Assembly: GCF_024502345.1 (NCBI RefSeq)
Contig: NZ_JALDNN010000001.1
Source: Escherichia coli
GTDB taxonomy: Bacteria > Pseudomonadota > Gammaproteobacteria > Enterobacterales > Enterobacteriaceae
Length of the DNA stretch: 64,000 nt
Direction: 5' to 3' (one strand)
Position numbers and translations under genes: made by a program
In this document: piece by piece, positions 4,587 to 39,183 of the stretch
How positions within the stretch are numbered: the stretch's first letter is position 1
Layout: each line of letters begins with the position of its first letter
Notes under the pieces: model-generated
Told to the model about the DNA's origin: nothing
Databases searched by the model: none
The model's input: only the letters and a program-made list of their open reading frames with translations

Positions 4587-4647
4587 CCTAAAGAATCAAG
4601 ACGATCCGGTACGCGTGATTTTCTTTTCACATTAATCTGGTCAATAA

Positions 4648-4679
4648 CCTTGAATAATTGAGGGATGACCTCATTTAAT
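4648..4679 (+). promoter_or_regulatory. Sigma-32 (heat-shock) promoter of clpB
   Basis: CCTTGAAT (-35), 14-bp spacer, CCTCATTTA (-10): matches the sigma-32 consensus CTTGAA / CCCCATnT; about 40 bp upstream of the clpB start. Confidence 0.6.
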
Positions 4680-4715
4680 CTCCAGTAGCAACTTTGATCC
4701 GTTATGGGAGGAGTT

Positions 4716-7289
4716 ATGCGTCTGGATCGTCTTACTAATAAATTCCAGCTTGCTCTTGCCGATGCCCAATCACTTGCACTCGGGCACGACAACCAATTCA
4801 TCGAACCACTTCATTTAATGAGCGCCCTGCTGAATCAGGAAGGGGGTTCGGTTAGTCCTTTATTAACATCCGCTGGCATAAATGCTGGCCAGTTGCGCAC
4901 AGATATCAATCAGGCATTAAATCGTTTACCGCAGGTTGAAGGTACTGGTGGTGATGTCCAGCCATCACAGGATCTGGTGCGCGTTCTTAATCTTTGCGAC
5001 AAGCTGGCGCAAAAACGTGGTGATAACTTTATCTCGTCAGAACTGTTCGTTCTGGCGGCACTTGAGTCTCGCGGCACGCTGGCCGACATCCTGAAAGCAG
5101 CAGGGGCGACCACCGCCAACATTACTCAAGCGATTGAACAAATGCGTGGAGGTGAAAGCGTGAACGATCAAGGTGCTGAAGACCAACGTCAGGCTTTGAA
5201 AAAATATACCATCGACCTTACCGAACGAGCCGAACAGGGCAAACTCGATCCGGTGATTGGTCGTGATGAAGAAATTCGCCGTACCATTCAGGTGCTGCAA
5301 CGTCGTACTAAAAATAACCCGGTACTGATTGGTGAACCCGGCGTCGGTAAAACTGCCATCGTTGAAGGTCTGGCGCAGCGTATTATCAACGGCGAAGTGC
5401 CGGAAGGGTTGAAAGGCCGCCGGGTACTGGCGCTGGATATGGGCGCGCTGGTGGCTGGGGCGAAATATCGCGGTGAGTTTGAAGAACGTTTAAAAGGCGT
5501 GCTTAACGATCTTGCCAAACAGGAAGGCAACGTCATCCTGTTTATCGACGAATTACATACCATGGTCGGCGCGGGTAAAGCCGATGGCGCAATGGACGCC
5601 GGAAACATGCTGAAACCGGCGCTGGCGCGTGGTGAATTGCACTGCGTAGGTGCCACGACGCTTGACGAATATCGCCAGTACATCGAAAAAGATGCTGCGC
5701 TGGAACGTCGTTTCCAGAAAGTGTTTGTTGCCGAGCCTTCTGTTGAAGATACCATTGCGATTCTGCGTGGCCTGAAAGAACGTTACGAATTGCACCACCA
5801 TGTGCAAATTACTGACCCGGCAATTGTTGCAGCGGCGACGTTGTCTCATCGCTACATTGCTGACCGTCAGCTGCCGGATAAAGCCATCGACCTGATCGAT
5901 GAAGCAGCATCCAGCATTCGTATGCAGATTGACTCAAAACCAGAAGAACTCGACCGACTCGATCGCCGTATCATCCAGCTCAAACTGGAACAACAGGCGT
6001 TAATGAAAGAGTCTGATGAAGCCAGTAAAAAACGTCTGGATATGCTCAACGAAGAACTGAGCGACAAAGAACGTCAGTACTCCGAGTTAGAAGAAGAGTG
6101 GAAAGCAGAGAAGGCATCGCTTTCTGGTACGCAGACCATTAAAGCGGAACTGGAACAGGCGAAAATCGCTATTGAACAGGCTCGCCGTGTGGGTGACCTG
6201 GCGCGGATGTCTGAACTGCAATACGGCAAAATCCCGGAACTGGAAAAGCAACTGGAAGCCGCAACGCAGCTCGAAGGCAAAACTATGCGTCTGTTGCGTA
6301 ATAAAGTGACCGACGCCGAAATTGCTGAAGTGCTGGCGCGTTGGACGGGGATTCCGGTTTCTCGCATGATGGAAAGCGAGCGCGAAAAACTGCTGCGTAT
6401 GGAGCAAGAACTGCACCATCGCGTAATTGGTCAGAACGAAGCGGTTGATGCGGTATCTAACGCTATTCGTCGTAGCCGTGCGGGGCTGGCGGATCCAAAT
6501 CGCCCGATTGGTTCATTCCTGTTCCTCGGCCCAACTGGTGTGGGGAAAACTGAGCTTTGTAAGGCGCTGGCGAACTTTATGTTTGATAGCGACGAGGCGA
6601 TGGTCCGTATCGATATGTCCGAGTTTATGGAGAAACACTCGGTGTCTCGTCTGGTTGGTGCGCCTCCGGGATATGTCGGTTATGAAGAAGGTGGCTACCT
6701 GACCGAAGCTGTGCGTCGTCGTCCGTATTCCGTCATCCTGCTGGATGAAGTGGAAAAAGCGCATCCGGATGTCTTCAATATTCTGTTGCAGGTACTGGAT
6801 GATGGGCGTCTGACTGACGGGCAGGGGAGAACGGTCGACTTCCGTAATACGGTTGTCATTATGACCTCTAACCTCGGTTCCGATCTGATTCAGGAACGCT
6901 TCGGTGAACTGGATTATGCGCACATGAAAGAGCTGGTGCTCGGTGTGGTTAGCCATAACTTCCGTCCGGAATTCATTAACCGTATCGATGAAGTGGTGGT
7001 CTTCCATCCGCTGGGTGAACAGCACATTGCGTCGATTGCGCAGATTCAGTTGAAACGTCTGTATAAACGTCTGGAAGAACGTGGTTATGAAATCCACATT
7101 TCTGACGAGGCGCTGAAACTGCTGAGCGAGAACGGTTACGATCCGGTCTATGGTGCACGTCCTCTGAAACGTGCAATTCAGCAGCAGATCGAAAACCCGC
7201 TGGCACAGCAAATACTGTCTGGTGAATTGGTTCCGGGTAAAGTGATTCGCCTGGAAGTTAATGAAGACCGGATTGTCGCCGTCCAGTAA
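4716..7289 (+). CDS. clpB: Chaperone ClpB (Hsp100 disaggregase, AAA+)
   Basis: Track ORF begins at 4704, but the ATG at 4716 follows a perfect GGGAGGAG SD and gives the canonical 857-aa [11 protein letters not shown]... protein; two Walker A motifs ([16 protein letters not shown]). Internal GTG at 5160 (Val149) with its own GGAGG SD matches the known short ClpB isoform start. Confidence 0.95.
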
Positions 7290-7730: not shown

Positions 7731-9272
<1,542 letters not shown>

Positions 9273-9357
9273 CCTTAAAGAAGCGTACTTTGTAGTGCTC
9301 ACACAGATTGTCTGATAGAAAGTGAAAAGCAAGGCGTCTTGCGAAGCAGACTGATAC

Positions 9358-9433
9358 GTCCCCTTCGTCTAGAGGCCCAGGACACCGCCCTTTCACGGCG
9401 GTAACAGGGGTTCGAATCCCCTAGGGGACGCCA
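9358..9433 (+). tRNA. gltW: tRNA-Glu (UUC) in the 16S–23S spacer
   Basis: GTCCCCTTCGTCTAGAGGCCCAGGACACCGCCCTTTCACGGCGGTAACAGGGGTTCGAATCCCCTAGGGGACGCCA; 76 nt with encoded CCA; anticodon loop CTTTCAC. Confidence 0.95.
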
Positions 9434-9626
9434 CTTGCTGGTTTGTGAGTGAAAGTCACCTGCCTTGATATCTCAAAACTCATCTTCGGGTGATGTTTGA
9501 GATATTTGCTCTTTAAAAATCTGGATCAAGCTGAAAATTGAAACACTGAACAACGAAAGTTGTTCGTGAGTCTCTCAAATTTTCGCAACACGATGATGAA
9601 TCGAAAGAAACATCTTCGGGTTGTGA

Positions 9627-12529
<2,903 letters not shown>

Positions 12530-12621
12530 ACAACGCCGAAGGTGTTTTGGCGGATGAGAGAAGATTTTCAGCCTGATACAGATTAAATCAGAACGCAGAA
12601 GCGGTCTGATAAAACAGAATT

Positions 12622-12741
12622 TGCCTGGCGGCCGTAGCGCGGTGGTCCCACCTGACCCCATGCCGAACTCAGAAGTGAAACGCCGTAGCGCCGATGGTAG
12701 TGTGGGGTCTCCCCATGCGAGAGTAGGGAACTGCCAGGCAT
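12622..12741 (+). rRNA. rrfG: 5S ribosomal RNA
   Basis: TGCCTGGCGGCCGTAGCGCGGTGGTCCCACCTGACCCCATGCCGAACTCAGAAGTGAAACGCCGTAGCGCCGATGGTAGTGTGGGGTCTCCCCATGCGAGAGTAGGGAACTGCCAGGCAT; 120 nt. Confidence 0.97.
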
Positions 12742-24428: not shown

Positions 24429-24526
24429 GCCGGATGCGGCGTGAACGCCTTATCCGGCCTACAAGATCGTGCAAATTCAATATATTGCATGAGCCACGTA
24501 GGCCTGATAAGCGTAGCGCATCAGGC
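24429..24526. repeat. BIME: two inverted REP elements
   Basis: GCCGGATGCGGCGTGAACGCCTTATCCGGCCTAC and the inverted GTAGGCCTGATAAGCGTAGCGCATCAGGC, separated by a linker containing TGCAAATTCAATATATTGCA; a near-identical copy lies at 54596..54693. Confidence 0.85.
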
Positions 24527-30055: not shown

Positions 30056-31011
30056 TGAAGCAACTTTGGTTTGCCATGTCATTAGTGACAGGTAGCCTGT
30101 TATTCTCTGCTAACGCCTCGGCCACTCCCGCGTCCGGGGCGTTATTACAGCAGATGAACCTGGCCAGTCAGTCACTGAATTACGAGCTGTCATTCATCAG
30201 CATCAATAAACAGGGTGTTGAGTCTCTGCGTTATCGACATGCACGCCTCGATAACCGTCCTCTTGCACAATTGTTGCAAATGGATGGCCCGCGCCGGGAA
30301 GTGGTACAGCGCGGCAATGAAATCAGCTATTTTGAACCGGGACTTGAACCGTTCACGCTTAATGGCGATTACATTGTTGATTCTCTGCCATCGCTTATCT
30401 ATACCGATTTCAAACGCCTTTCTCCTTACTACGACTTTATCTCCGTCGGGCGCACGCGTATTGCTGATCGTCTTTGCGAAGTCATTCGCGTGGTTGCCCG
30501 AGATGGTACACGCTACAGCTACATCGTGTGGATGGACACCGAATCGAAATTACCGATGCGGGTTGATCTCCTTGATCGCGATGGTGAAACGCTGGAACAA
30601 TTTCGCGTGATTGCTTTTAACGTCAATCAGGATATCAGCAGCAGTATGCAGACGCTGGCGAAGGCAAATTTGCCGCCGTTGCTTTCTGTTCCTGTAGGTG
30701 AAAAAGCTAAATTCAGCTGGACGCCAACCTGGTTGCCACAGGGTTTTAGCGAAGTTTCCAGTAGTCGACGTCCGCTACCGACGATGGACAACATGCCTAT
30801 CGAATCACGTCTCTATTCCGACGGATTATTCAGCTTCTCGGTAAACGTTAACCGCGCTACGCCATCGAGCACCGATCAGATGTTGCGCACCGGACGCAGA
30901 ACCGTCAGTACAAGCGTACGTGATAACGCCGAAATCACTATTGTCGGTGAACTGCCGCCGCAAACGGCGAAACGCATTGCCGAGAATATTAAGTTCGGGG
31001 CAGCGCAATGA
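30055..31011 (+). CDS. rseB: SigmaE regulatory protein RseB (periplasmic)
   Basis: 318-aa ORF with signal peptide; ATG overlaps the rseA stop (TAATG). Confidence 0.93.
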   Translation: MKQLWFAMSLVTGSLLFSANASATPASGALLQQMNLASQSLNYELSFISINKQGVESLRYRHARLDNRPLAQLLQMDGPRREVVQRGNEISYFEPGLEPFTLNGDYIVDSLPSLIYTDFKRLSPYYDFISVGRTRIADRLCEVIRVVARDGTRYSYIVWMDTESKLPMRVDLLDRDGETLEQFRVIAFNVNQDISSSMQTLAKANLPPLLSVPVGEKAKFSWTPTWLPQGFSEVSSSRRPLPTMDNMPIESRLYSDGLFSFSVNVNRATPSSTDQMLRTGRRTVSTSVRDNAEITIVGELPPQTAKRIAENIKFGAAQ

Positions 31012-31487
31012 TCAAAGAGTGGGCTACCGTCGTCTCCTGGCAAAACGGGCAGGCGCTGGTCAGTTGTGATGTTAAAGCTTCATGCAGCAGCTGCGCTTCA
31101 CGCGCCGGTTGCGGTAGCCGCGTGTTGAATAAACTTGGCCCGCAAACCACGCATACCATTGTCGTACCCTGTGATGAACCGTTAGTGCCGGGGCAAAAAG
31201 TGGAATTGGGGATCGCCGAAGGCAGCCTGCTTAGCTCCGCATTACTGGTTTATATGTCGCCGCTGGTGGGATTATTCCTTATCGCTTCGCTATTTCAGCT
31301 ACTCTTTGCTTCTGACGTCGCAGCATTATGTGGTGCGGTCCTCGGCGGTATTGGCGGGTTCCTGATTGCGCGCGGCTACTCGCGTAAGTTTGCTGCCCGG
31401 GCAGAATGGCAACCGATCATCTTAAGCGTGGCATTGCCGCCTGGCCTTGTGCGATTTGAAACATCTTCGGAAGACGCGAGCCAGTGA
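31008..31487 (+). CDS. rseC: SigmaE regulatory protein RseC
   Basis: 159-aa membrane ORF MIKEWATVVSWQNGQALVSCDVKASCSSCASRAGCG...; 4-bp overlap with rseB. Confidence 0.9.
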   Translation: MIKEWATVVSWQNGQALVSCDVKASCSSCASRAGCGSRVLNKLGPQTTHTIVVPCDEPLVPGQKVELGIAEGSLLSSALLVYMSPLVGLFLIASLFQLLFASDVAALCGAVLGGIGGFLIARGYSRKFAARAEWQPIILSVALPPGLVRFETSSEDASQ

Positions 31488-31510
31488 TTTCACTGGCTTT
31501 GTTGCATTTT
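31479..31510 (+). terminator. Putative terminator after rseC
   Basis: Hairpin GCCAGTGA-TT-TCACTGGC followed by TTTGTTGCATTTT, overlapping the rseC stop. Confidence 0.5.
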
Positions 31511-31684
31511 GCATAACAAATGCGAGGACGTTTCCAGATACCACAATCCATACGGTATGAACATTTCCTCGCCTCAATGTTGTAGTGTAGAATGCGGCGT
31601 TTCTATTAATACAGACGTTAAGCTCAGAACAGCGACTTCTAAAAGCCTGGTTAACCGGGCATTAAGGCACAATAATCATACTTT

Positions 31685-33484
31685 ATGAAGAATATACGTA
31701 ACTTTTCGATCATAGCTCACATTGACCACGGTAAATCGACGCTGTCTGACCGTATTATCCAGATCTGCGGTGGCCTGTCTGACCGTGAAATGGAGGCGCA
31801 GGTTCTCGATTCCATGGATCTTGAGCGTGAGCGTGGCATTACCATCAAAGCGCAAAGCGTGACGCTGGACTACAAAGCGTCTGACGGCGAAACCTATCAG
31901 CTTAACTTTATCGACACCCCGGGCCACGTAGACTTCTCCTATGAAGTTTCCCGTTCGCTGGCTGCCTGTGAAGGTGCATTGCTGGTGGTCGACGCCGGGC
32001 AGGGCGTGGAAGCGCAAACCCTGGCAAACTGCTACACCGCCATGGAAATGGATCTCGAAGTGGTGCCAGTACTGAACAAGATTGACCTGCCGGCAGCCGA
32101 TCCTGAACGCGTGGCGGAAGAAATTGAAGATATCGTCGGCATCGACGCCACTGACGCGGTGCGCTGTTCAGCGAAAACCGGCGTTGGCGTGCAGGACGTT
32201 CTCGAACGTCTGGTGCGCGACATTCCGCCGCCGGAAGGCGATCCGGAAGGCCCGTTGCAGGCACTAATTATCGACTCATGGTTCGACAACTACCTGGGCG
32301 TTGTTTCACTTATCCGTATTAAAAACGGCACCCTGCGTAAGGGCGACAAAGTGAAAGTCATGAGTACCGGGCAGACCTATAACGCCGACCGTCTGGGCAT
32401 CTTCACGCCGAAACAGGTTGACCGCACTGAACTGAAATGTGGCGAAGTAGGCTGGCTGGTATGTGCGATTAAAGATATCCACGGCGCTCCAGTCGGCGAT
32501 ACCTTAACGCTGGCGCGTAATCCGGCAGAAAAGGCGCTGCCTGGCTTTAAGAAAGTCAAACCGCAGGTATACGCTGGTCTGTTCCCGGTAAGCTCCGACG
32601 ACTATGAAGCCTTCCGTGACGCGCTGGGTAAACTCAGCCTGAACGATGCCTCACTGTTCTATGAGCCGGAAAGCTCCAGCGCGCTGGGCTTTGGTTTCCG
32701 CTGCGGCTTCCTTGGCCTGCTGCACATGGAGATCATCCAGGAACGTCTGGAACGTGAATACGATCTGGATCTGATCACCACTGCGCCGACCGTAGTGTAT
32801 GAAGTTGAAACCACGTCAAGGGAAGTTATCTACGTCGACAGCCCATCCAAGCTGCCTGCGGTAAATAACATTTACGAACTGCGCGAGCCGATTGCAGAGT
32901 GTCACATGCTGCTGCCGCAGGCATATCTCGGCAACGTTATTACGCTGTGCGTAGAAAAACGCGGCGTGCAGACCAATATGGTTTACCACGGTAATCAGGT
33001 GGCGCTGACGTACGAGATCCCGATGGCGGAAGTGGTGCTCGACTTCTTCGATCGCCTGAAATCTACCTCGCGTGGTTATGCGTCTCTGGATTACAACTTC
33101 AAACGCTTCCAGGCGTCCGACATGGTACGTGTAGACGTATTAATCAACGGTGAACGTGTTGATGCGTTGGCGCTGATCACCCACCGTGATAATTCGCAAA
33201 ACCGCGGTCGCGAGTTGGTGGAGAAGATGAAAGATCTGATCCCACGCCAGCAGTTTGATATCGCCATTCAGGCAGCGATTGGTACGCACATTATTGCGCG
33301 ATCCACCGTGAAACAGCTGCGTAAAAACGTACTGGCTAAATGTTATGGCGGCGATATCAGCCGTAAGAAAAAGCTGCTGCAGAAGCAGAAAGAAGGTAAG
33401 AAACGCATGAAGCAGATCGGTAACGTCGAGCTGCCGCAGGAAGCGTTCCTCGCCATTCTGCACGTCGGCAAAGACAACAAATAA
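31685..33484 (+). CDS. lepA: Translation elongation factor 4 (LepA)
   Basis: 599-aa [26 protein letters not shown]... with GTPase G1 motif AHIDHGKST. Confidence 0.96.
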
Positions 33485-34518: not shown

Positions 34519-34715
34519 ATTATTTATGAGATAAATCTCCCGTGGCTAACGACATCCCCCGTCGTTGTGTATAGAATATTCCCCCGAAGTTTAAGGTTGG
34601 CACCTCCAGGTTGCCACGGCACACGAAACAGCGTTGGTCCCCATATACCGCTAAACTGAAACTGCAGCGAAGCAGTTAGCAGAGCCATGTATATCAGGTC
34701 TGTTTCGTGTGCTGA

Positions 34716-36328
<1,613 letters not shown>

Positions 36329-37079: not shown

Positions 37080-37811
37080 ATGGCTGAATTACTGTTAGGC
37101 GTCAACATTGACCATATTGCAACGCTGCGTAACGCACGCGGTACTGCTTACCCGGATCCGGTGCAGGCGGCGTTTATTGCCGAGCAGGCGGGAGCGGACG
37201 GCATTACCGTGCATTTACGTGAAGATCGCCGCCACATTACTGACCGCGATGTGCGCATCCTGCGGCAGACGCTGGATACCCGAATGAATCTGGAGATGGC
37301 AGTGACCGAAGAGATGCTGGCGATCGCCGTTGAGACGAAGCCACATTTTTGCTGTCTGGTACCGGAAAAGCGTCAGGAAGTCACGACCGAAGGCGGCCTG
37401 GACGTCGCAGGGCAGCGTGACAAAATGCGAGATGCCTGCAAACGTCTGGCGGATGCCGGGATTCAGGTTTCTCTGTTTATCGACGCCGATGAAGAGCAGA
37501 TCAAAGCTGCGGCAGAGGTTGGCGCACCGTTTATCGAGATCCACACTGGTTGCTATGCTGATGCCAAAACTGACGCCGAACAGGCGCAAGAGCTGGCGCG
37601 TATCGCCAAAGCCGCAACCTTTGCCGCAAGCCTCGGTCTGAAAGTTAATGCTGGTCACGGTCTGACCTATCACAACGTAAAAGCCATTGCCGCCATCCCT
37701 GAGATGCACGAACTGAATATCGGTCATGCCATTATTGGCCGTGCGGTGATGACCGGGCTGAAAGAAGCCGTAGCAGAGATGAAGCGTCTGATGCTGGAAG
37801 CGCGTGGCTAA
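37080..37811 (+). CDS. pdxJ: Pyridoxine 5'-phosphate synthase
   Basis: ATG at 37080 gives the 243-aa [21 protein letters not shown]... protein. Confidence 0.93.
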
Positions 37812-38191
37812 TGGCAATATTAGGTTTAGGTATGGATATTGTGGAGATCGCTCGCATAGAAGCGGTGATCGCCCGATCCGGTGATCGCCTGGCACGCCGC
37901 GTATTAAGCGATAACGAATGGGCTATCTGGAAAACGCACCACCAGCCGGTGCGTTTTCTGGCGAAGCGTTTTGCTGTGAAAGAAGCGGCGGCAAAAGCGT
38001 TTGGCACCGGGATCCGCAATGGTCTGGCGTTTAATCAGTTTGAAGTATTCAATGATGAGCTCGGCAAACCACGGCTACGGCTATGGGGTGAGGCATTAAA
38101 ACTGGCGGAAAAGCTCGGCGTTGTAAATATGCATGTAACGCTTGCCGATGAGCGGCACTATGCTTGTGCCACGGTAATTATTGAAAGTTAA
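37811..38191 (+). CDS. acpS: Holo-[acyl-carrier-protein] synthase
   Basis: 126-aa [35 protein letters not shown]...; ATG overlaps the pdxJ stop (TAATG). Confidence 0.95.
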
Positions 38192-38217
38192 AAATAATAC
38201 CGTTCTATTTATAAAGT

Positions 38218-38256
38218 AAAACCCCCGAACTGGTAAGGAACGGGGGTTTTACTTTT
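38218..38256 (+). terminator. Rho-independent terminator of the rnc-era-recO-pdxJ-acpS cluster
   Basis: Hairpin AAACCCCCGAACTGGTAAGGAACGGGGGTTT followed by TACTTTTT. Confidence 0.7.
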
Positions 38257-38611
38257 TAACTTTAATTTTGTGCAGCATGCACCCTCAACAACAGCGATTA
38301 TGGATCAGTGTGCTTATCTTTTACAAGCAACTTGCAATCTTTAGCATAAAAACTCGAGCCTTTACGAAGAAAGCAATATTGATGGAAAGATTTACGTGAC
38401 CGCCAATTCGTAAGTACATTAAAATTGGCTTCGTTATTGAAGATTTTGCTGTGCTTTACACCATGCCACAGAATTCCCCCATTGAAACGAGTGGTGTCGT
38501 CAAAGCTCTGGTGTGGAGTGCAGCATGCACCCTCAATAACTCGCACGTTCAGTTTTGGGGAGATGTAAGGGCTAATCTGAACGGCTGCATTCCTTGTTTA
38601 AGGAAAAACGA

Positions 38612-38692
38612 ATGACTGATTGCCGATACCTTATTAAACGGGTCATCAAAATCATCATTGCTGTTTTACAGCTGATCCTTCTGTTCTTGTAA
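38612..38692 (+). CDS. shoB: Type I toxin ShoB (26-aa hydrophobic membrane peptide)
   Basis: ATG ACT GAT TGC CGA TAC CTT ATT AAA ... = MTDCRYLIKRVIKIIIAVLQLILLFL*; below the ORF-track size cut-off; lies in the acpS–yfhL intergenic region where shoB/ohsC sits in K-12; a GC hairpin follows. Confidence 0.8.
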   Translation: MTDCRYLIKRVIKIIIAVLQLILLFL

Positions 38693-38886
38693 CACCAGGA
38701 AACGTACTTAAGGCGCGTCCGGTGAACCAGCCTGGCGCGCCTTTAATAATTCTAAATAAGTGTTTGTGCAGATATTGTTGTAATTCATTAAATGAATAAT
38801 ATTTATAATAACATTACGTAAATAAATATAATAACCTGAAGGTTTGCACAATAAAGTCATCAATATTCTGCTCCGGGAGCAGAATA

Positions 38887-39183
<297 letters not shown>

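What the first reader, a model, noticed from the sequence alone, without database searches (positions are those of the whole stretch)
38257..38760. shoB type I toxin ORF invisible to the ORF track; antisense partner expected nearby
At 38612..38692 the sequence encodes MTDCRYLIKRVIKIIIAVLQLILLFL, a 26-aa hydrophobic peptide I recognise as the ShoB toxin, in the acpS–yfhL intergenic gap where the shoB/ohsC pair lies in K-12. The roughly 350 bp upstream should contain the long shoB 5' UTR and the divergent antisense sRNA OhsC, but I cannot place the OhsC boundaries or promoters from sequence alone. The 82-aa minus-strand ORF in the track (38298..38546) overlaps this regulatory region and is probably not a gene.
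Basis: partly seen in the sequence, partly recalled or inferred. Interest (0 to 1): 0.5.

Follow-up and report, generated by a model that had tools for sequence, protein, structure and literature searches.

The report
Known shoB–ohsC toxin–antitoxin locus
This is the intact, already well-described E. coli shoB/ohsC type I toxin–antitoxin pair (a 26-residue membrane toxin gene and a small RNA that silences it), sitting exactly where it sits in strain K-12, so the finding is correct but ordinary.

Summary
Window 38612..38692 (+) encodes MTDCRYLIKRVIKIIIAVLQLILLFL, identical to annotated ShoB of E. coli K-12, in the acpS–yfhL gap. The partner sRNA gene ohsC lies at 38211..38289 on the minus strand (Rfam RF02495, 106.8 bits against a threshold of 50). 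That is divergent from shoB, does not overlap it, and extends 46 nt beyond the left edge of the finding. Both promoters carry the published hexamers. The predicted shoB mRNA (about 38432..38750, 319 nt) matches the reported ~320 nt. The first 20 nt of OhsC pair with 38518..38537 in the shoB 5' UTR, 74 nt upstream of the AUG, because a 19-nt exact direct repeat occurs at both places. The 82-aa minus-strand ORF is open only in this window. All 11 other strains examined have an in-frame stop, so it is not a gene. The locus is in 5425 of 5426 complete E. coli genomes and is an Escherichia-specific insertion of about 620–700 bp between genes that abut in other Enterobacteriaceae. One small addition: E. 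coli carries two allele classes (~69%/31%) in which an 8-nt block of the pairing region has changed at both sites in concert, so the duplex is preserved. How OhsC blocks translation (standby site or structural switch) could not be resolved in silico. Novelty: already known.

The parts
38211..38289 (-). ohsC, the small antitoxin RNA gene (79 nt by transfer of the K-12 annotation; Rfam match 38213..38289)
   Evidence: Rfam RF02495 ohsC_RNA scores 106.8 bits against a gathering score of 50 and covers the full model 1-77. K-12 ohsC b4608 is 79 nt and ends 19 nt from the acpS stop. The window is 100% identical to K-12 over nt 1-77. The fold gives a single-stranded 5' end GUUGAGG, a small hairpin and a 15-bp terminator hairpin, -29.2 kcal/mol, z = -4.3.
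38209..38259 (.). Bidirectional terminator hairpin shared by acpS (+) and ohsC (-)
   Evidence: Inverted repeat I1 has arms 38209-38227 and 38241-38259, 95% complementary. The Rfam ohsC model also matches the opposite strand weakly through this near-palindrome. The same point is made in PMC11264685.
38297..38326 (-). ohsC promoter: -35 TTGTAA (38326..38321), 18-nt spacer, -10 CATAAT (38302..38297); start 7 nt downstream at 38289
   Evidence: Found by the promoter scan. The hexamers are identical to those tabulated for ohsC in PMC11264685 Table 2.
38396..38425 (+). shoB promoter: -35 GTGACC (38396..38401), 18-nt spacer, -10 TAAAAT (38420..38425)
   Evidence: Found by the promoter scan. The hexamers are identical to those tabulated for shoB in PMC11264685 Table 2, conserved in >99% of E. 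coli.
38432..38750 (+). Predicted full-length shoB mRNA (about 319 nt; the start is inferred to within +/-1-2 nt from the -10 box, the end from the terminator)
   Evidence: The length agrees with the ~320-nt full-length transcript reported for K-12 (PMC5668327). The fold is -104.1 kcal/mol, z = -4.0. The transcript itself was not observed here.
38472..38472 (+). Approximate 5' end of the processed, translatable shoB mRNA (+41; ~279 nt)
   Evidence: Position transferred from the literature only. A second 5' end lies 41 nt downstream of the longest one, and only that form is active in lacZ fusions (PMC5066626; PMC7708055; ~280 nt in PMC5668327). Not tested here.
38518..38537 (+). OhsC target site in the shoB 5' UTR (19 Watson-Crick pairs plus one G.U with OhsC nt 1-20); second copy of the direct repeat
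   Evidence: Direct repeat D1 is at 38270-38292 and 38518-38540, 23 nt, 96% identical. The exact 19-mer occurs only at these two places in the 64-kb window, against 0.03 expected. The duplex energy is -41.4 kcal/mol. The literature reports 19 nt of complementarity between the OhsC 5' end and the shoB 5' UTR (PMC3919570). The two sites change in concert in other strains.
38590..38605 (+). Hairpin that sequesters the ribosome binding site: UUCCUU (38590-95) / GUUU / AAGGAA (38600-05)
   Evidence: Predicted in the full-length fold of every strain examined, with P(SD unpaired) 0.10-0.19. The RBS AAGGAA is 100% conserved in E. coli according to PMC11264685.
38612..38692 (+). shoB coding sequence (26 codons plus TAA): MTDCRYLIKRVIKIIIAVLQLILLFL
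   Evidence: Identical to K-12 b4687 / WP_000128776.1.
38710..38750 (+). shoB terminator hairpin (38710-38723 / 38730-38743) followed by UUUAAUAAU
   Evidence: Predicted in every fold. The pair 38714/38739 is C-G in the window, U-A in K-12 and U-G in others (pair 283-308).
38298..38546 (-). 82-aa ORF: a spurious reading frame, not a gene
   Evidence: It is open only in the window. All 11 other Escherichia sequences have an in-frame TAA (window T38393 against A), and four also have a frameshift. It has no NCBIfam match. It runs across both promoters and the shoB 5' UTR.
38451..38615 (+). Upstream ORF in the shoB leader (54 codons from GTG, 50 from ATG 38463) whose TGA overlaps the shoB ATG (ATGA); probably not translated
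   Evidence: It is open in all 12 sequences, but the substitutions are mostly non-synonymous (Q>L, K>N, S>I, F>V, G>S, CTL>LDS). There is no Shine-Dalgarno sequence upstream of either start. It has no NCBIfam match.

Best explanation
The region is the chromosomal shoB-ohsC type I toxin-antitoxin locus of Escherichia coli, complete and apparently functional.

shoB is transcribed rightwards from a sigma-70 promoter (-10 at 38420..38425) as a ~320-nt mRNA with a ~180-nt structured leader. It encodes a 26-residue hydrophobic peptide that depolarises the inner membrane when overproduced (literature). ohsC is transcribed leftwards from 38289 and ends at the hairpin that also terminates acpS.

In the primary shoB transcript the ribosome binding site is locked in a local hairpin. 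The 5' end folds back on both flanks of the OhsC target, so the mRNA is inert. Removal of about 40 nt from the 5' end (literature) frees that upstream region and allows translation. The single-stranded 5' end of OhsC then pairs with 20 nt of the leader (38518..38537), 74 nt upstream of the AUG. This blocks translation indirectly by occupying the upstream element the ribosome needs. That element is a standby loading site, or in an alternative fold the segment that holds the anti-SD away from the SD. Pairing also exposes the duplex to RNase III.

Shown here: identity and completeness of every sequence element, the complementarity, and its preservation by concerted change in other strains. Taken from the literature: the transcripts, the processing, toxicity and repression. 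Inferred: which of the two indirect mechanisms applies.
For: - ShoB peptide is identical to K-12.
- ohsC matches Rfam RF02495 at 106.8 bits against a gathering score of 50, over the full-length model, and is 100% identical to K-12 ohsC over 77 nt.
- Synteny is acpS-ohsC-shoB-yfhL, as in NC_000913.3.
- The promoter hexamers and the RBS are identical to the published ones.
- The predicted mRNA length of 319 nt agrees with the reported ~320 nt.
- The 19-nt exact repeat gives a 20-bp OhsC:shoB duplex of -41.4 kcal/mol, which matches the published 19-nt complementarity.
- Natural compensatory evidence: in ~31% of E. coli genomes an 8-nt block inside the pairing region is replaced at both sites. There are 1701 genomes with the alternative target and 1697 with the alternative OhsC, against 3727 and 3713 of the window type. 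The cognate duplex is kept at -34.2 kcal/mol, whereas cross-allele duplexes reach only -21.5 to -23.7.
- In all six strains folded, the full-length leader sequesters both flanks of the target (P unpaired 0.00-0.17) and the SD (0.10-0.19). Removing 40 nt raises the accessibility of the target flanks to 0.36-0.85.
- Literature: the full-length form is inactive and the +41 form active, and OhsC abolishes ShoB toxicity. An RNase III cleavage site was detected in the shoB/OhsC duplex region in vivo.
Against: - No expression data exist for this strain. Transcript ends are inferred from the promoter and terminator sequences and from K-12 literature.
- The primary papers (Fozo 2008, Kawano 2005) could not be read in the library, so the experimental facts come from later papers that cite them.
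- The secondary structure cannot be tested by covariation. The 12 sequences are 98% identical and only 1 of 99 pairs shows a double change.
- The predicted opening of the SD after 5' processing appears only for the window sequence (P 0.85). It does not appear for K-12 (0.22) or four other strains (0.08-0.15), so the exact mode of translational control remains undecided.
Confidence: 0.93

Rival explanations
1. Sub-mechanism A, standby-ribosome competition as in tisB/IstR-1. The SD hairpin stays closed in the processed mRNA. The 30S subunit first loads on the single-stranded region around 38518..38540, and OhsC competes for that site.
For: - In five of six strains the SD hairpin is predicted to stay closed after 5' processing (P unpaired 0.08-0.22), while the target region becomes more accessible.
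- The target lies 62 nt upstream of the SD, too far for direct occlusion.
- This model has been proposed for shoB by analogy (PMC7708055; PMC4147584).
Against: - No standby site has been mapped for shoB.
- In the window's own sequence the processed form is predicted to pair the target's 5' half with the anti-SD rather than leave it single-stranded.
- The predictions are thermodynamic only.
Confidence: 0.45
2. Sub-mechanism B, a dinQ-like structural switch. After processing, GGAGUGCAGC (38514-23) pairs with GCUGCAUUCC (38584-93), pulls the anti-SD off the SD and opens the RBS. OhsC binding displaces this pairing and the SD hairpin re-forms.
For: - For the window sequence, P(SD unpaired) is 0.13-0.22 in the full-length form, 0.75-0.85 after removal of 40 nt, and 0.09-0.13 when 38518..38537 is blocked.
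- Four sequence elements of this kind were noted for shoB in PMC5066626.
Against: - The effect is not reproduced for K-12 (0.19/0.22/0.19), GF60 or two alternative-allele strains (0.08-0.10) with the same procedure, so it hinges on a few bases.
- None of these pairs varies, so there is no covariation.
Confidence: 0.3
3. Leader-ORF coupling as in hok/mok. The 54-codon upstream ORF (38451..38615) is translated, and its termination at the ATGA overlap delivers ribosomes to the shoB start. OhsC, which pairs inside this ORF, would interfere with that.
For: - The ORF is open in all 12 Escherichia sequences.
- Its stop codon overlaps the shoB ATG.
- The OhsC target lies within it.
Against: - There is no Shine-Dalgarno sequence before GTG 38451 or ATG 38463.
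- The substitutions are mostly non-synonymous, including a 3-residue replacement in the alternative allele.
- The +41 processed, active mRNA starts at ~38472 and so lacks both start codons.
- An open frame of 54 codons has roughly a 7% chance per frame (my own estimate from 61/64 per codon).
Confidence: 0.03
4. The 82-aa minus-strand ORF 38298..38546 is a real protein-coding gene overlapping the regulatory region.
For: It is an uninterrupted 82-codon GTG-initiated frame in this window.
Against: - It is interrupted by TAA in all 11 other Escherichia sequences and frameshifted in four.
- It has no family match.
- It spans two promoters and a conserved RNA leader, whose conservation explains the sequence identity.
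Confidence: 0.01

Closest known systems
shoB-ohsC (ryfB-ryfC) type I toxin-antitoxin locus of E. coli K-12 (b4687 / b4608)
   Same: The peptide is identical. ohsC is identical over 77 of 79 nt. The neighbours (acpS, yfhL), the orientation, the promoter hexamers, the RBS, the 19-nt complementarity and the predicted transcript length are all the same.
   Different: There are only a handful of base changes. Two are synonymous changes in shoB. One is in the OhsC 3' tail (38212). C38582 is T in K-12. T38393 is A in K-12, and this change opens the spurious 82-aa ORF. There are several partly compensatory changes in the shoB terminator. The AT-rich spacer between the terminator and yfhL is divergent.
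tisB/istR-1 (E. coli), and zorO/orzO
   Same: The sRNA is divergent and non-overlapping. Pairing of about 18-21 nt goes through the sRNA 5' end to a site far upstream of the RBS in a long leader. The primary transcript is inert and is activated by 5' processing. RNase III is involved.
   Different: The sequences and peptides are unrelated. tisB is LexA-controlled, whereas CpxR has been reported for shoB/ohsC. The standby site and pseudoknot were shown for tisB and are only hypothesised for shoB.
dinQ/agrB (E. coli)
   Same: The gene arrangement is divergent. A mutually exclusive helices model (elements 1-4) would fit the shoB leader of this window.
   Different: For shoB the switch is only a prediction, and here it was not robust across strains.
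hok/sok with the mok leader ORF
   Same: It is a small membrane toxin with a structured inert primary mRNA, and an upstream ORF overlaps the toxin start.
   Different: Sok is a true cis-antisense RNA that overlaps the mok start. Activation is by 3' processing. The shoB upstream ORF lacks an SD and loses its start codons in the active mRNA.

Membership tests
ShoB type I toxin | 26-residue peptide with a charged N-terminal half and a hydrophobic C-terminal helix, matching ShoB | tested here: met
   100% identity over 26/26 residues to K-12 b4687 and WP_000128776.1.
ShoB type I toxin | Chromosomal position between acpS and yfhL, on the same strand as acpS | tested here: met
   The gap is filled only in Escherichia. 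In about 75 other Enterobacteriaceae species the acpS and yfhL ends abut or lie at most 139 nt apart.
ShoB type I toxin | Own promoter, long 5' UTR and RBS as described for E. coli | tested here: met
   GTGACC/TAAAAT and AAGGAA are identical to PMC11264685 Table 2. The leader is about 180 nt.
ShoB type I toxin | Profile-HMM membership | tested here: inconclusive
   NCBIfam holds no model that matches ShoB (0 families). Pfam could not be run on a 26-aa query.
ShoB type I toxin | Toxicity and membrane depolarisation on overproduction | not testable with these tools
   Known for the identical K-12 peptide from the literature.
OhsC sRNA (Rfam RF02495) | Covariance-model score above the gathering threshold | tested here: met
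   106.8 bits against 50, model positions 1-77 of 77, at 38213..38289 (-).
OhsC sRNA (Rfam RF02495) | 5' end complementary (~19 nt) to the shoB 5' UTR | tested here: met
   19 Watson-Crick pairs plus 1 G.U, -41.4 kcal/mol. Preserved by concerted change in the alternative allele.
OhsC sRNA (Rfam RF02495) | Divergent from shoB and not overlapping it, with its own promoter and terminator | tested here: met
   TTGTAA/CATAAT promoter, terminator hairpin, and transcription starts 142 bp apart.
OhsC sRNA (Rfam RF02495) | Represses ShoB synthesis and toxicity | not testable with these tools
   Literature for K-12 only.
Standby-site-regulated type I toxins (tisB-like), considered for mechanism only | Antitoxin site far upstream of a sequestered RBS | tested here: met
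   The target ends 62 nt before the SD. The SD hairpin is predicted in all strains.
Standby-site-regulated type I toxins (tisB-like), considered for mechanism only | A single-stranded standby site is exposed only in the 5'-processed mRNA and is required for 30S loading | tested here: inconclusive
   The accessibility of the target flanks rises from <=0.17 to 0.36-0.85 in silico. In the window's own fold, however, the region pairs with the anti-SD. There is no experimental test.
hok/mok-type leader-ORF coupling | Translated upstream ORF whose translation is required for toxin translation | tested here: not met
   An ORF is present, but it has no SD, its substitutions are mostly non-synonymous, and its start codons lie upstream of the reported +41 processing site.

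The most novel reading that the evidence does not exclude
E. coli carries two co-adapted specificity alleles of the OhsC:shoB interaction, roughly 69% window/K-12 type and 31% alternative type. The alternative type includes O157:H7 and O6 strains. An 8-nt block in the middle of the 19-23-nt direct repeat (TGCACCCT) has been replaced at both the ohsC copy (CACGATTC) and the shoB-leader copy (CTCGATTC). Cognate pairs therefore still form a 20-bp duplex, while cross-allele pairs would not. This is natural compensatory evidence that the pairing is under selection, or is homogenised by conversion between the repeats. A 2024 survey noted the variation but left the question open. It concerns the locus in general; the window itself carries the common allele.
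Probability: 0.5. Interest if true: 0.3.

Novelty: already known. Interest (0 to 1): 0.12.

Why it matters
For the window itself it matters only as annotation. A real 26-codon toxin gene and a 79-nt sRNA gene are missed by length-filtered ORF tracks, while a spurious 82-aa ORF is shown in their place. More generally, shoB/ohsC is one of the less studied divergent type I systems, and its mode of translational control is still unresolved. The two naturally occurring, mutually incompatible pairing alleles found in the comparison offer a ready-made compensatory-mutation experiment for testing it.

Tried and rejected
- NCBIfam scan of ShoB, the leader ORF and the 82-aa ORF gave no family for any of them. 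For ShoB this reflects a missing model, not absence of homology.
- Reading the primary papers (PMC2597788, PMC549416): they are not held. The experimental facts were taken from later open-access papers.
- Covariation test of the predicted full-length leader structure on 12 Escherichia sequences: 98% identity and only one pair with a double change (A-U/G-U/G-C at 38440:38533). This is not significant (73/500 shuffles).
- The in-silico three-state switch (closed/open/closed SD) looked convincing for the window. It failed for K-12 and four other strains, so I do not rely on it.
- Search for shoB/ohsC outside Escherichia by synteny (80 acpS loci from GTDB species representatives) and by blastn/tblastn found nothing beyond Escherichia.
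- Phage collection: no match.
- Plasmid collection: 4 matches, all in records of 1.4-4.9 Mb, which are evidently chromosomes filed as plasmids.
- Placing the two published CpxR boxes: the paper's text gives no sequences. The best consensus matches nearby are 38445-38459 (-, 1 mismatch) and 38410-38424 (+, 3 mismatches). I could not say which of these, if either, is CB1 or CB2. A whole-window scan with 3 mismatches was uninformative (521 hits).
- A second promoter-like site on the + strand (38320..38347) was not pursued. Its match is no better than chance expectation, and it would give a transcript longer than any reported.

Full report
**Observation**

Reading the window directly and listing ORFs down to 20 aa shows an ATG at 38612 and a TAA ending at 38692. 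The frame encodes MTDCRYLIKRVIKIIIAVLQLILLFL. It lies between acpS (37811..38191, +) and yfhL (38887..39147, -). The 82-aa minus-strand ORF 38298..38546 is also there. A megablast of 38150..38900 against 5426 complete E. coli genomes matches 5425 of them, always once and always on the chromosome, with shoB, acpS and yfhL annotated under the match. A 5.2-kb stretch to the left is 99.3% identical to E. coli strain A30, so the window is E. coli.

**Identity of the two genes**

In NC_000913.3 the order is yfhL, shoB (b4687, 2700117..2700197, -), ohsC (b4608, 2700520..2700598, +), acpS. The window is the reverse complement of this arrangement.

- The ShoB peptide is identical to K-12. The coding sequence differs by two synonymous bases.
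- Rfam finds ohsC_RNA (RF02495) at 38213..38289 on the minus strand with 106.8 bits against a gathering score of 50, covering the whole model.
- Transferring the K-12 coordinates gives 38211..38289. The first 77 nt are identical to K-12.

Forty-six of its 79 nt lie to the left of the finding's start coordinate.

**Anatomy**

The promoter scan returns GTGACC-18-TAAAAT on the plus strand (38396..38425) and TTGTAA-18-CATAAT on the minus strand (38326..38297). These are exactly the hexamers listed for shoB and ohsC in a survey of more than 2000 E. coli genomes, as is the RBS AAGGAA (PMC11264685).

- The ohsC -10 box ends 7 nt before 38289, the 5' end of the Rfam match.
- The shoB -10 box places the start near 38432.
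- With the terminator hairpin at 38710..38743, the mRNA would be about 319 nt. The reported sizes are ~320 nt for the full-length form and ~280 nt for the processed form (PMC5668327).
- OhsC folds into a free 5' end, a short hairpin and a 15-bp terminator hairpin. That hairpin is a near-palindrome that also serves acpS on the other strand.
- The two transcription starts are 142 bp apart and point away from each other. OhsC is therefore not an overlapping antisense RNA.

**The pairing**

A 23-nt direct repeat (19 nt exact) occurs at 38270..38292 and at 38518..38540. The 19-mer occurs nowhere else in the window, with 0.03 matches expected by chance.

Because ohsC is read from the opposite strand, its first 20 nt (GUUGAGGGUGCAUGCUGCAC) are complementary to 38518..38537 of the shoB leader. 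That gives 19 Watson-Crick pairs plus one G.U, at -41.4 kcal/mol. This is the 19-nt complementarity described in the literature (PMC3919570). The site ends 62 nt before the SD (38600..38605) and 74 nt before the AUG.

**Comparative evidence**

I aligned the gap from 12 Escherichia sequences: the window, K-12, nine other E. coli strains, and one unnamed Escherichia species.

- ShoB is identical in 9 of the 12 and has single conservative changes in 3.
- The 82-aa minus-strand ORF is open only in the window. A private T at 38393 replaces the A that gives a TAA in all the others, and four strains also have a 1-nt insertion. It is not a gene.
- A 54-codon ORF in the shoB leader (38451..38615), whose TGA overlaps the shoB ATG, is open in all 12. 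Its substitutions are mostly non-synonymous and it has no SD. Its start codons lie upstream of the reported +41 processing site. I consider it a by-product of the conserved RNA.

**A point not spelled out in the papers I could read**

Four of the twelve sequences carry a different 8-nt block in the middle of the repeat, at both copies.

| Copy | Window/K-12 type | Alternative type |
|---|---|---|
| ohsC | TGCACCCT | CACGATTC |
| shoB leader | TGCACCCT | CTCGATTC |

- The cognate duplex is kept at -34.2 kcal/mol with one U.U mismatch. Cross-allele duplexes fall to -21.5 to -23.7 kcal/mol.
- Probing all complete genomes with 42-44-nt probes gives 3727 (target) and 3713 (OhsC) genomes of the window type, and 1701 and 1697 of the alternative type. 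The same accessions head both lists in each class.
- The alternative class also carries the TTGTAC -35 variant, which the 2024 survey found in 33% of strains.

The concerted change is natural evidence that the complementarity is maintained. Whether selection or conversion between the direct repeats maintains it cannot be told from these data. A per-genome tabulation could not be done with these tools.

**Mechanism**

From the literature:

- The full-length mRNA is translationally inert, and a form lacking ~40 nt at the 5' end is active.
- OhsC abolishes toxicity.
- An RNase III cleavage site was detected in the putative duplex region in vivo.

In silico, two features are robust in all six strains folded. 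In the full-length RNA, nt 16-32 and nt 2-9 pair with both flanks of the OhsC target and leave only its central 7 nt looped out. The SD sits in the UUCCUU/AAGGAA hairpin. Removing 40 nt raises the accessibility of the target flanks.

For the window sequence alone, the processed RNA is predicted to pair 38514-23 with the anti-SD and open the SD (P unpaired 0.75-0.85). Blocking the OhsC site closes it again (0.09-0.13). This is the dinQ-like switch proposed in PMC5066626.

The same calculation gives no opening for K-12 (0.22) or four other strains (0.08-0.15). The sequences are too similar for a covariation test. I therefore commit only to an indirect block of translation through the upstream site. 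I give the standby model a modest edge over the structural switch.

**Distribution**

Among 80 acpS loci from GTDB species representatives, only Escherichia has ohsC/shoB. This holds for E. coli and the unnamed Escherichia species. E. albertii has at least the ohsC 3' end before its contig stops. In about 75 other Enterobacteriaceae species, acpS and yfhL converge with their ends overlapping or at most 139 nt apart. The ~620-700-bp module is thus an Escherichia-specific insertion, which agrees with Fozo et al. 2010. There are no phage copies, and the only 'plasmid' hits are megabase-sized records.

**Verdict**

The locus is already known in every respect that concerns this window. Interest is low. 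The allele-class observation is a minor by-product.

Noticed in passing
L085-L088 (E. coli strains 150, C 691-04A, MS21199, 20Ec-P-124), positions homologous to window 38278-38285 and 38526-38533: There is a second allele class of the OhsC:shoB pairing region. An 8-nt block is replaced at both repeat copies in about 31% of complete E. coli genomes (1697-1701 of 5426, including O157:H7). The cognate duplex is kept and the cross-allele duplex is lost. This class is linked to the TTGTAC -35 variant of the ohsC promoter.
   Followed up: partly
window 38393: A private T (A in all 11 other sequences) removes a TAA on the minus strand. This is the only reason the 82-aa ORF appears in the ORF track. 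The base lies 3 nt upstream of the shoB -35 box.
   Followed up: yes
window 38451..38615 (+): A 54-codon ORF fills the shoB leader and ends with a TGA that overlaps the shoB ATG (ATGA). It is open in all 12 Escherichia sequences but shows no protein-level constraint.
   Followed up: partly
window 38440 and 38533: This is the only doubly changed base pair in the predicted full-length shoB leader: A-U (window, K-12), G-U (four strains), G-C (alternative-allele strains). It closes the helix between the mRNA 5' end and the 3' edge of the OhsC target.
   Followed up: yes
window 38750..38886: The AT-rich spacer between the shoB terminator and the yfhL end is much more variable among E. coli than ohsC-shoB itself, and it accounts for the 87-94% overall identities. 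It contains a 15-nt imperfect direct repeat (38798-38812 / 38821-38835) and the yfhL terminator hairpin (38862-38888).
   Followed up: no
L091 (E. coli LHM10-1), about window-equivalent 38386-38395: An IS1 element is inserted between ohsC and shoB, just upstream of the shoB -35 box. It is an example of the ~1% 'interrupted' loci reported in PMC11264685.
   Followed up: partly
window 37811..38191 (acpS): AcpS differs from K-12 at two residues, T8M and A105V. No genome representative among the 80 retrieved was more than 98% identical.
   Followed up: partly
L007-L083 (other Enterobacteriaceae), acpS 3' end: Outside Escherichia, acpS and yfhL converge with their 3' ends overlapping by a few bases in most species. 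The ohsC-shoB module is therefore an insertion into a formerly tight junction, and it brought or created the terminator that acpS now uses.
   Followed up: partly
window 4597-4735, 1166-1291, 7731-12739, 24463-24505, 30972-31803, 34586-34800, 47470-47617: Other Rfam matches above threshold are RyfD, the Phe leader, a complete rRNA operon (16S, tRNA, 23S, 5S), ES036/CssrF, AsrC (antisense to rseC), rncO and GlmY. All are expected for this part of the E. coli chromosome.
   Followed up: no
window 38445-38459 (-) and 38410-38424 (+): These are the best matches to the CpxR consensus GTAAA-N5-GTAAA near the shoB promoter (1 and 3 mismatches). CpxR is reported to bind the shoB-ohsC region at two boxes whose sequences I could not obtain.
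   Followed up: partly
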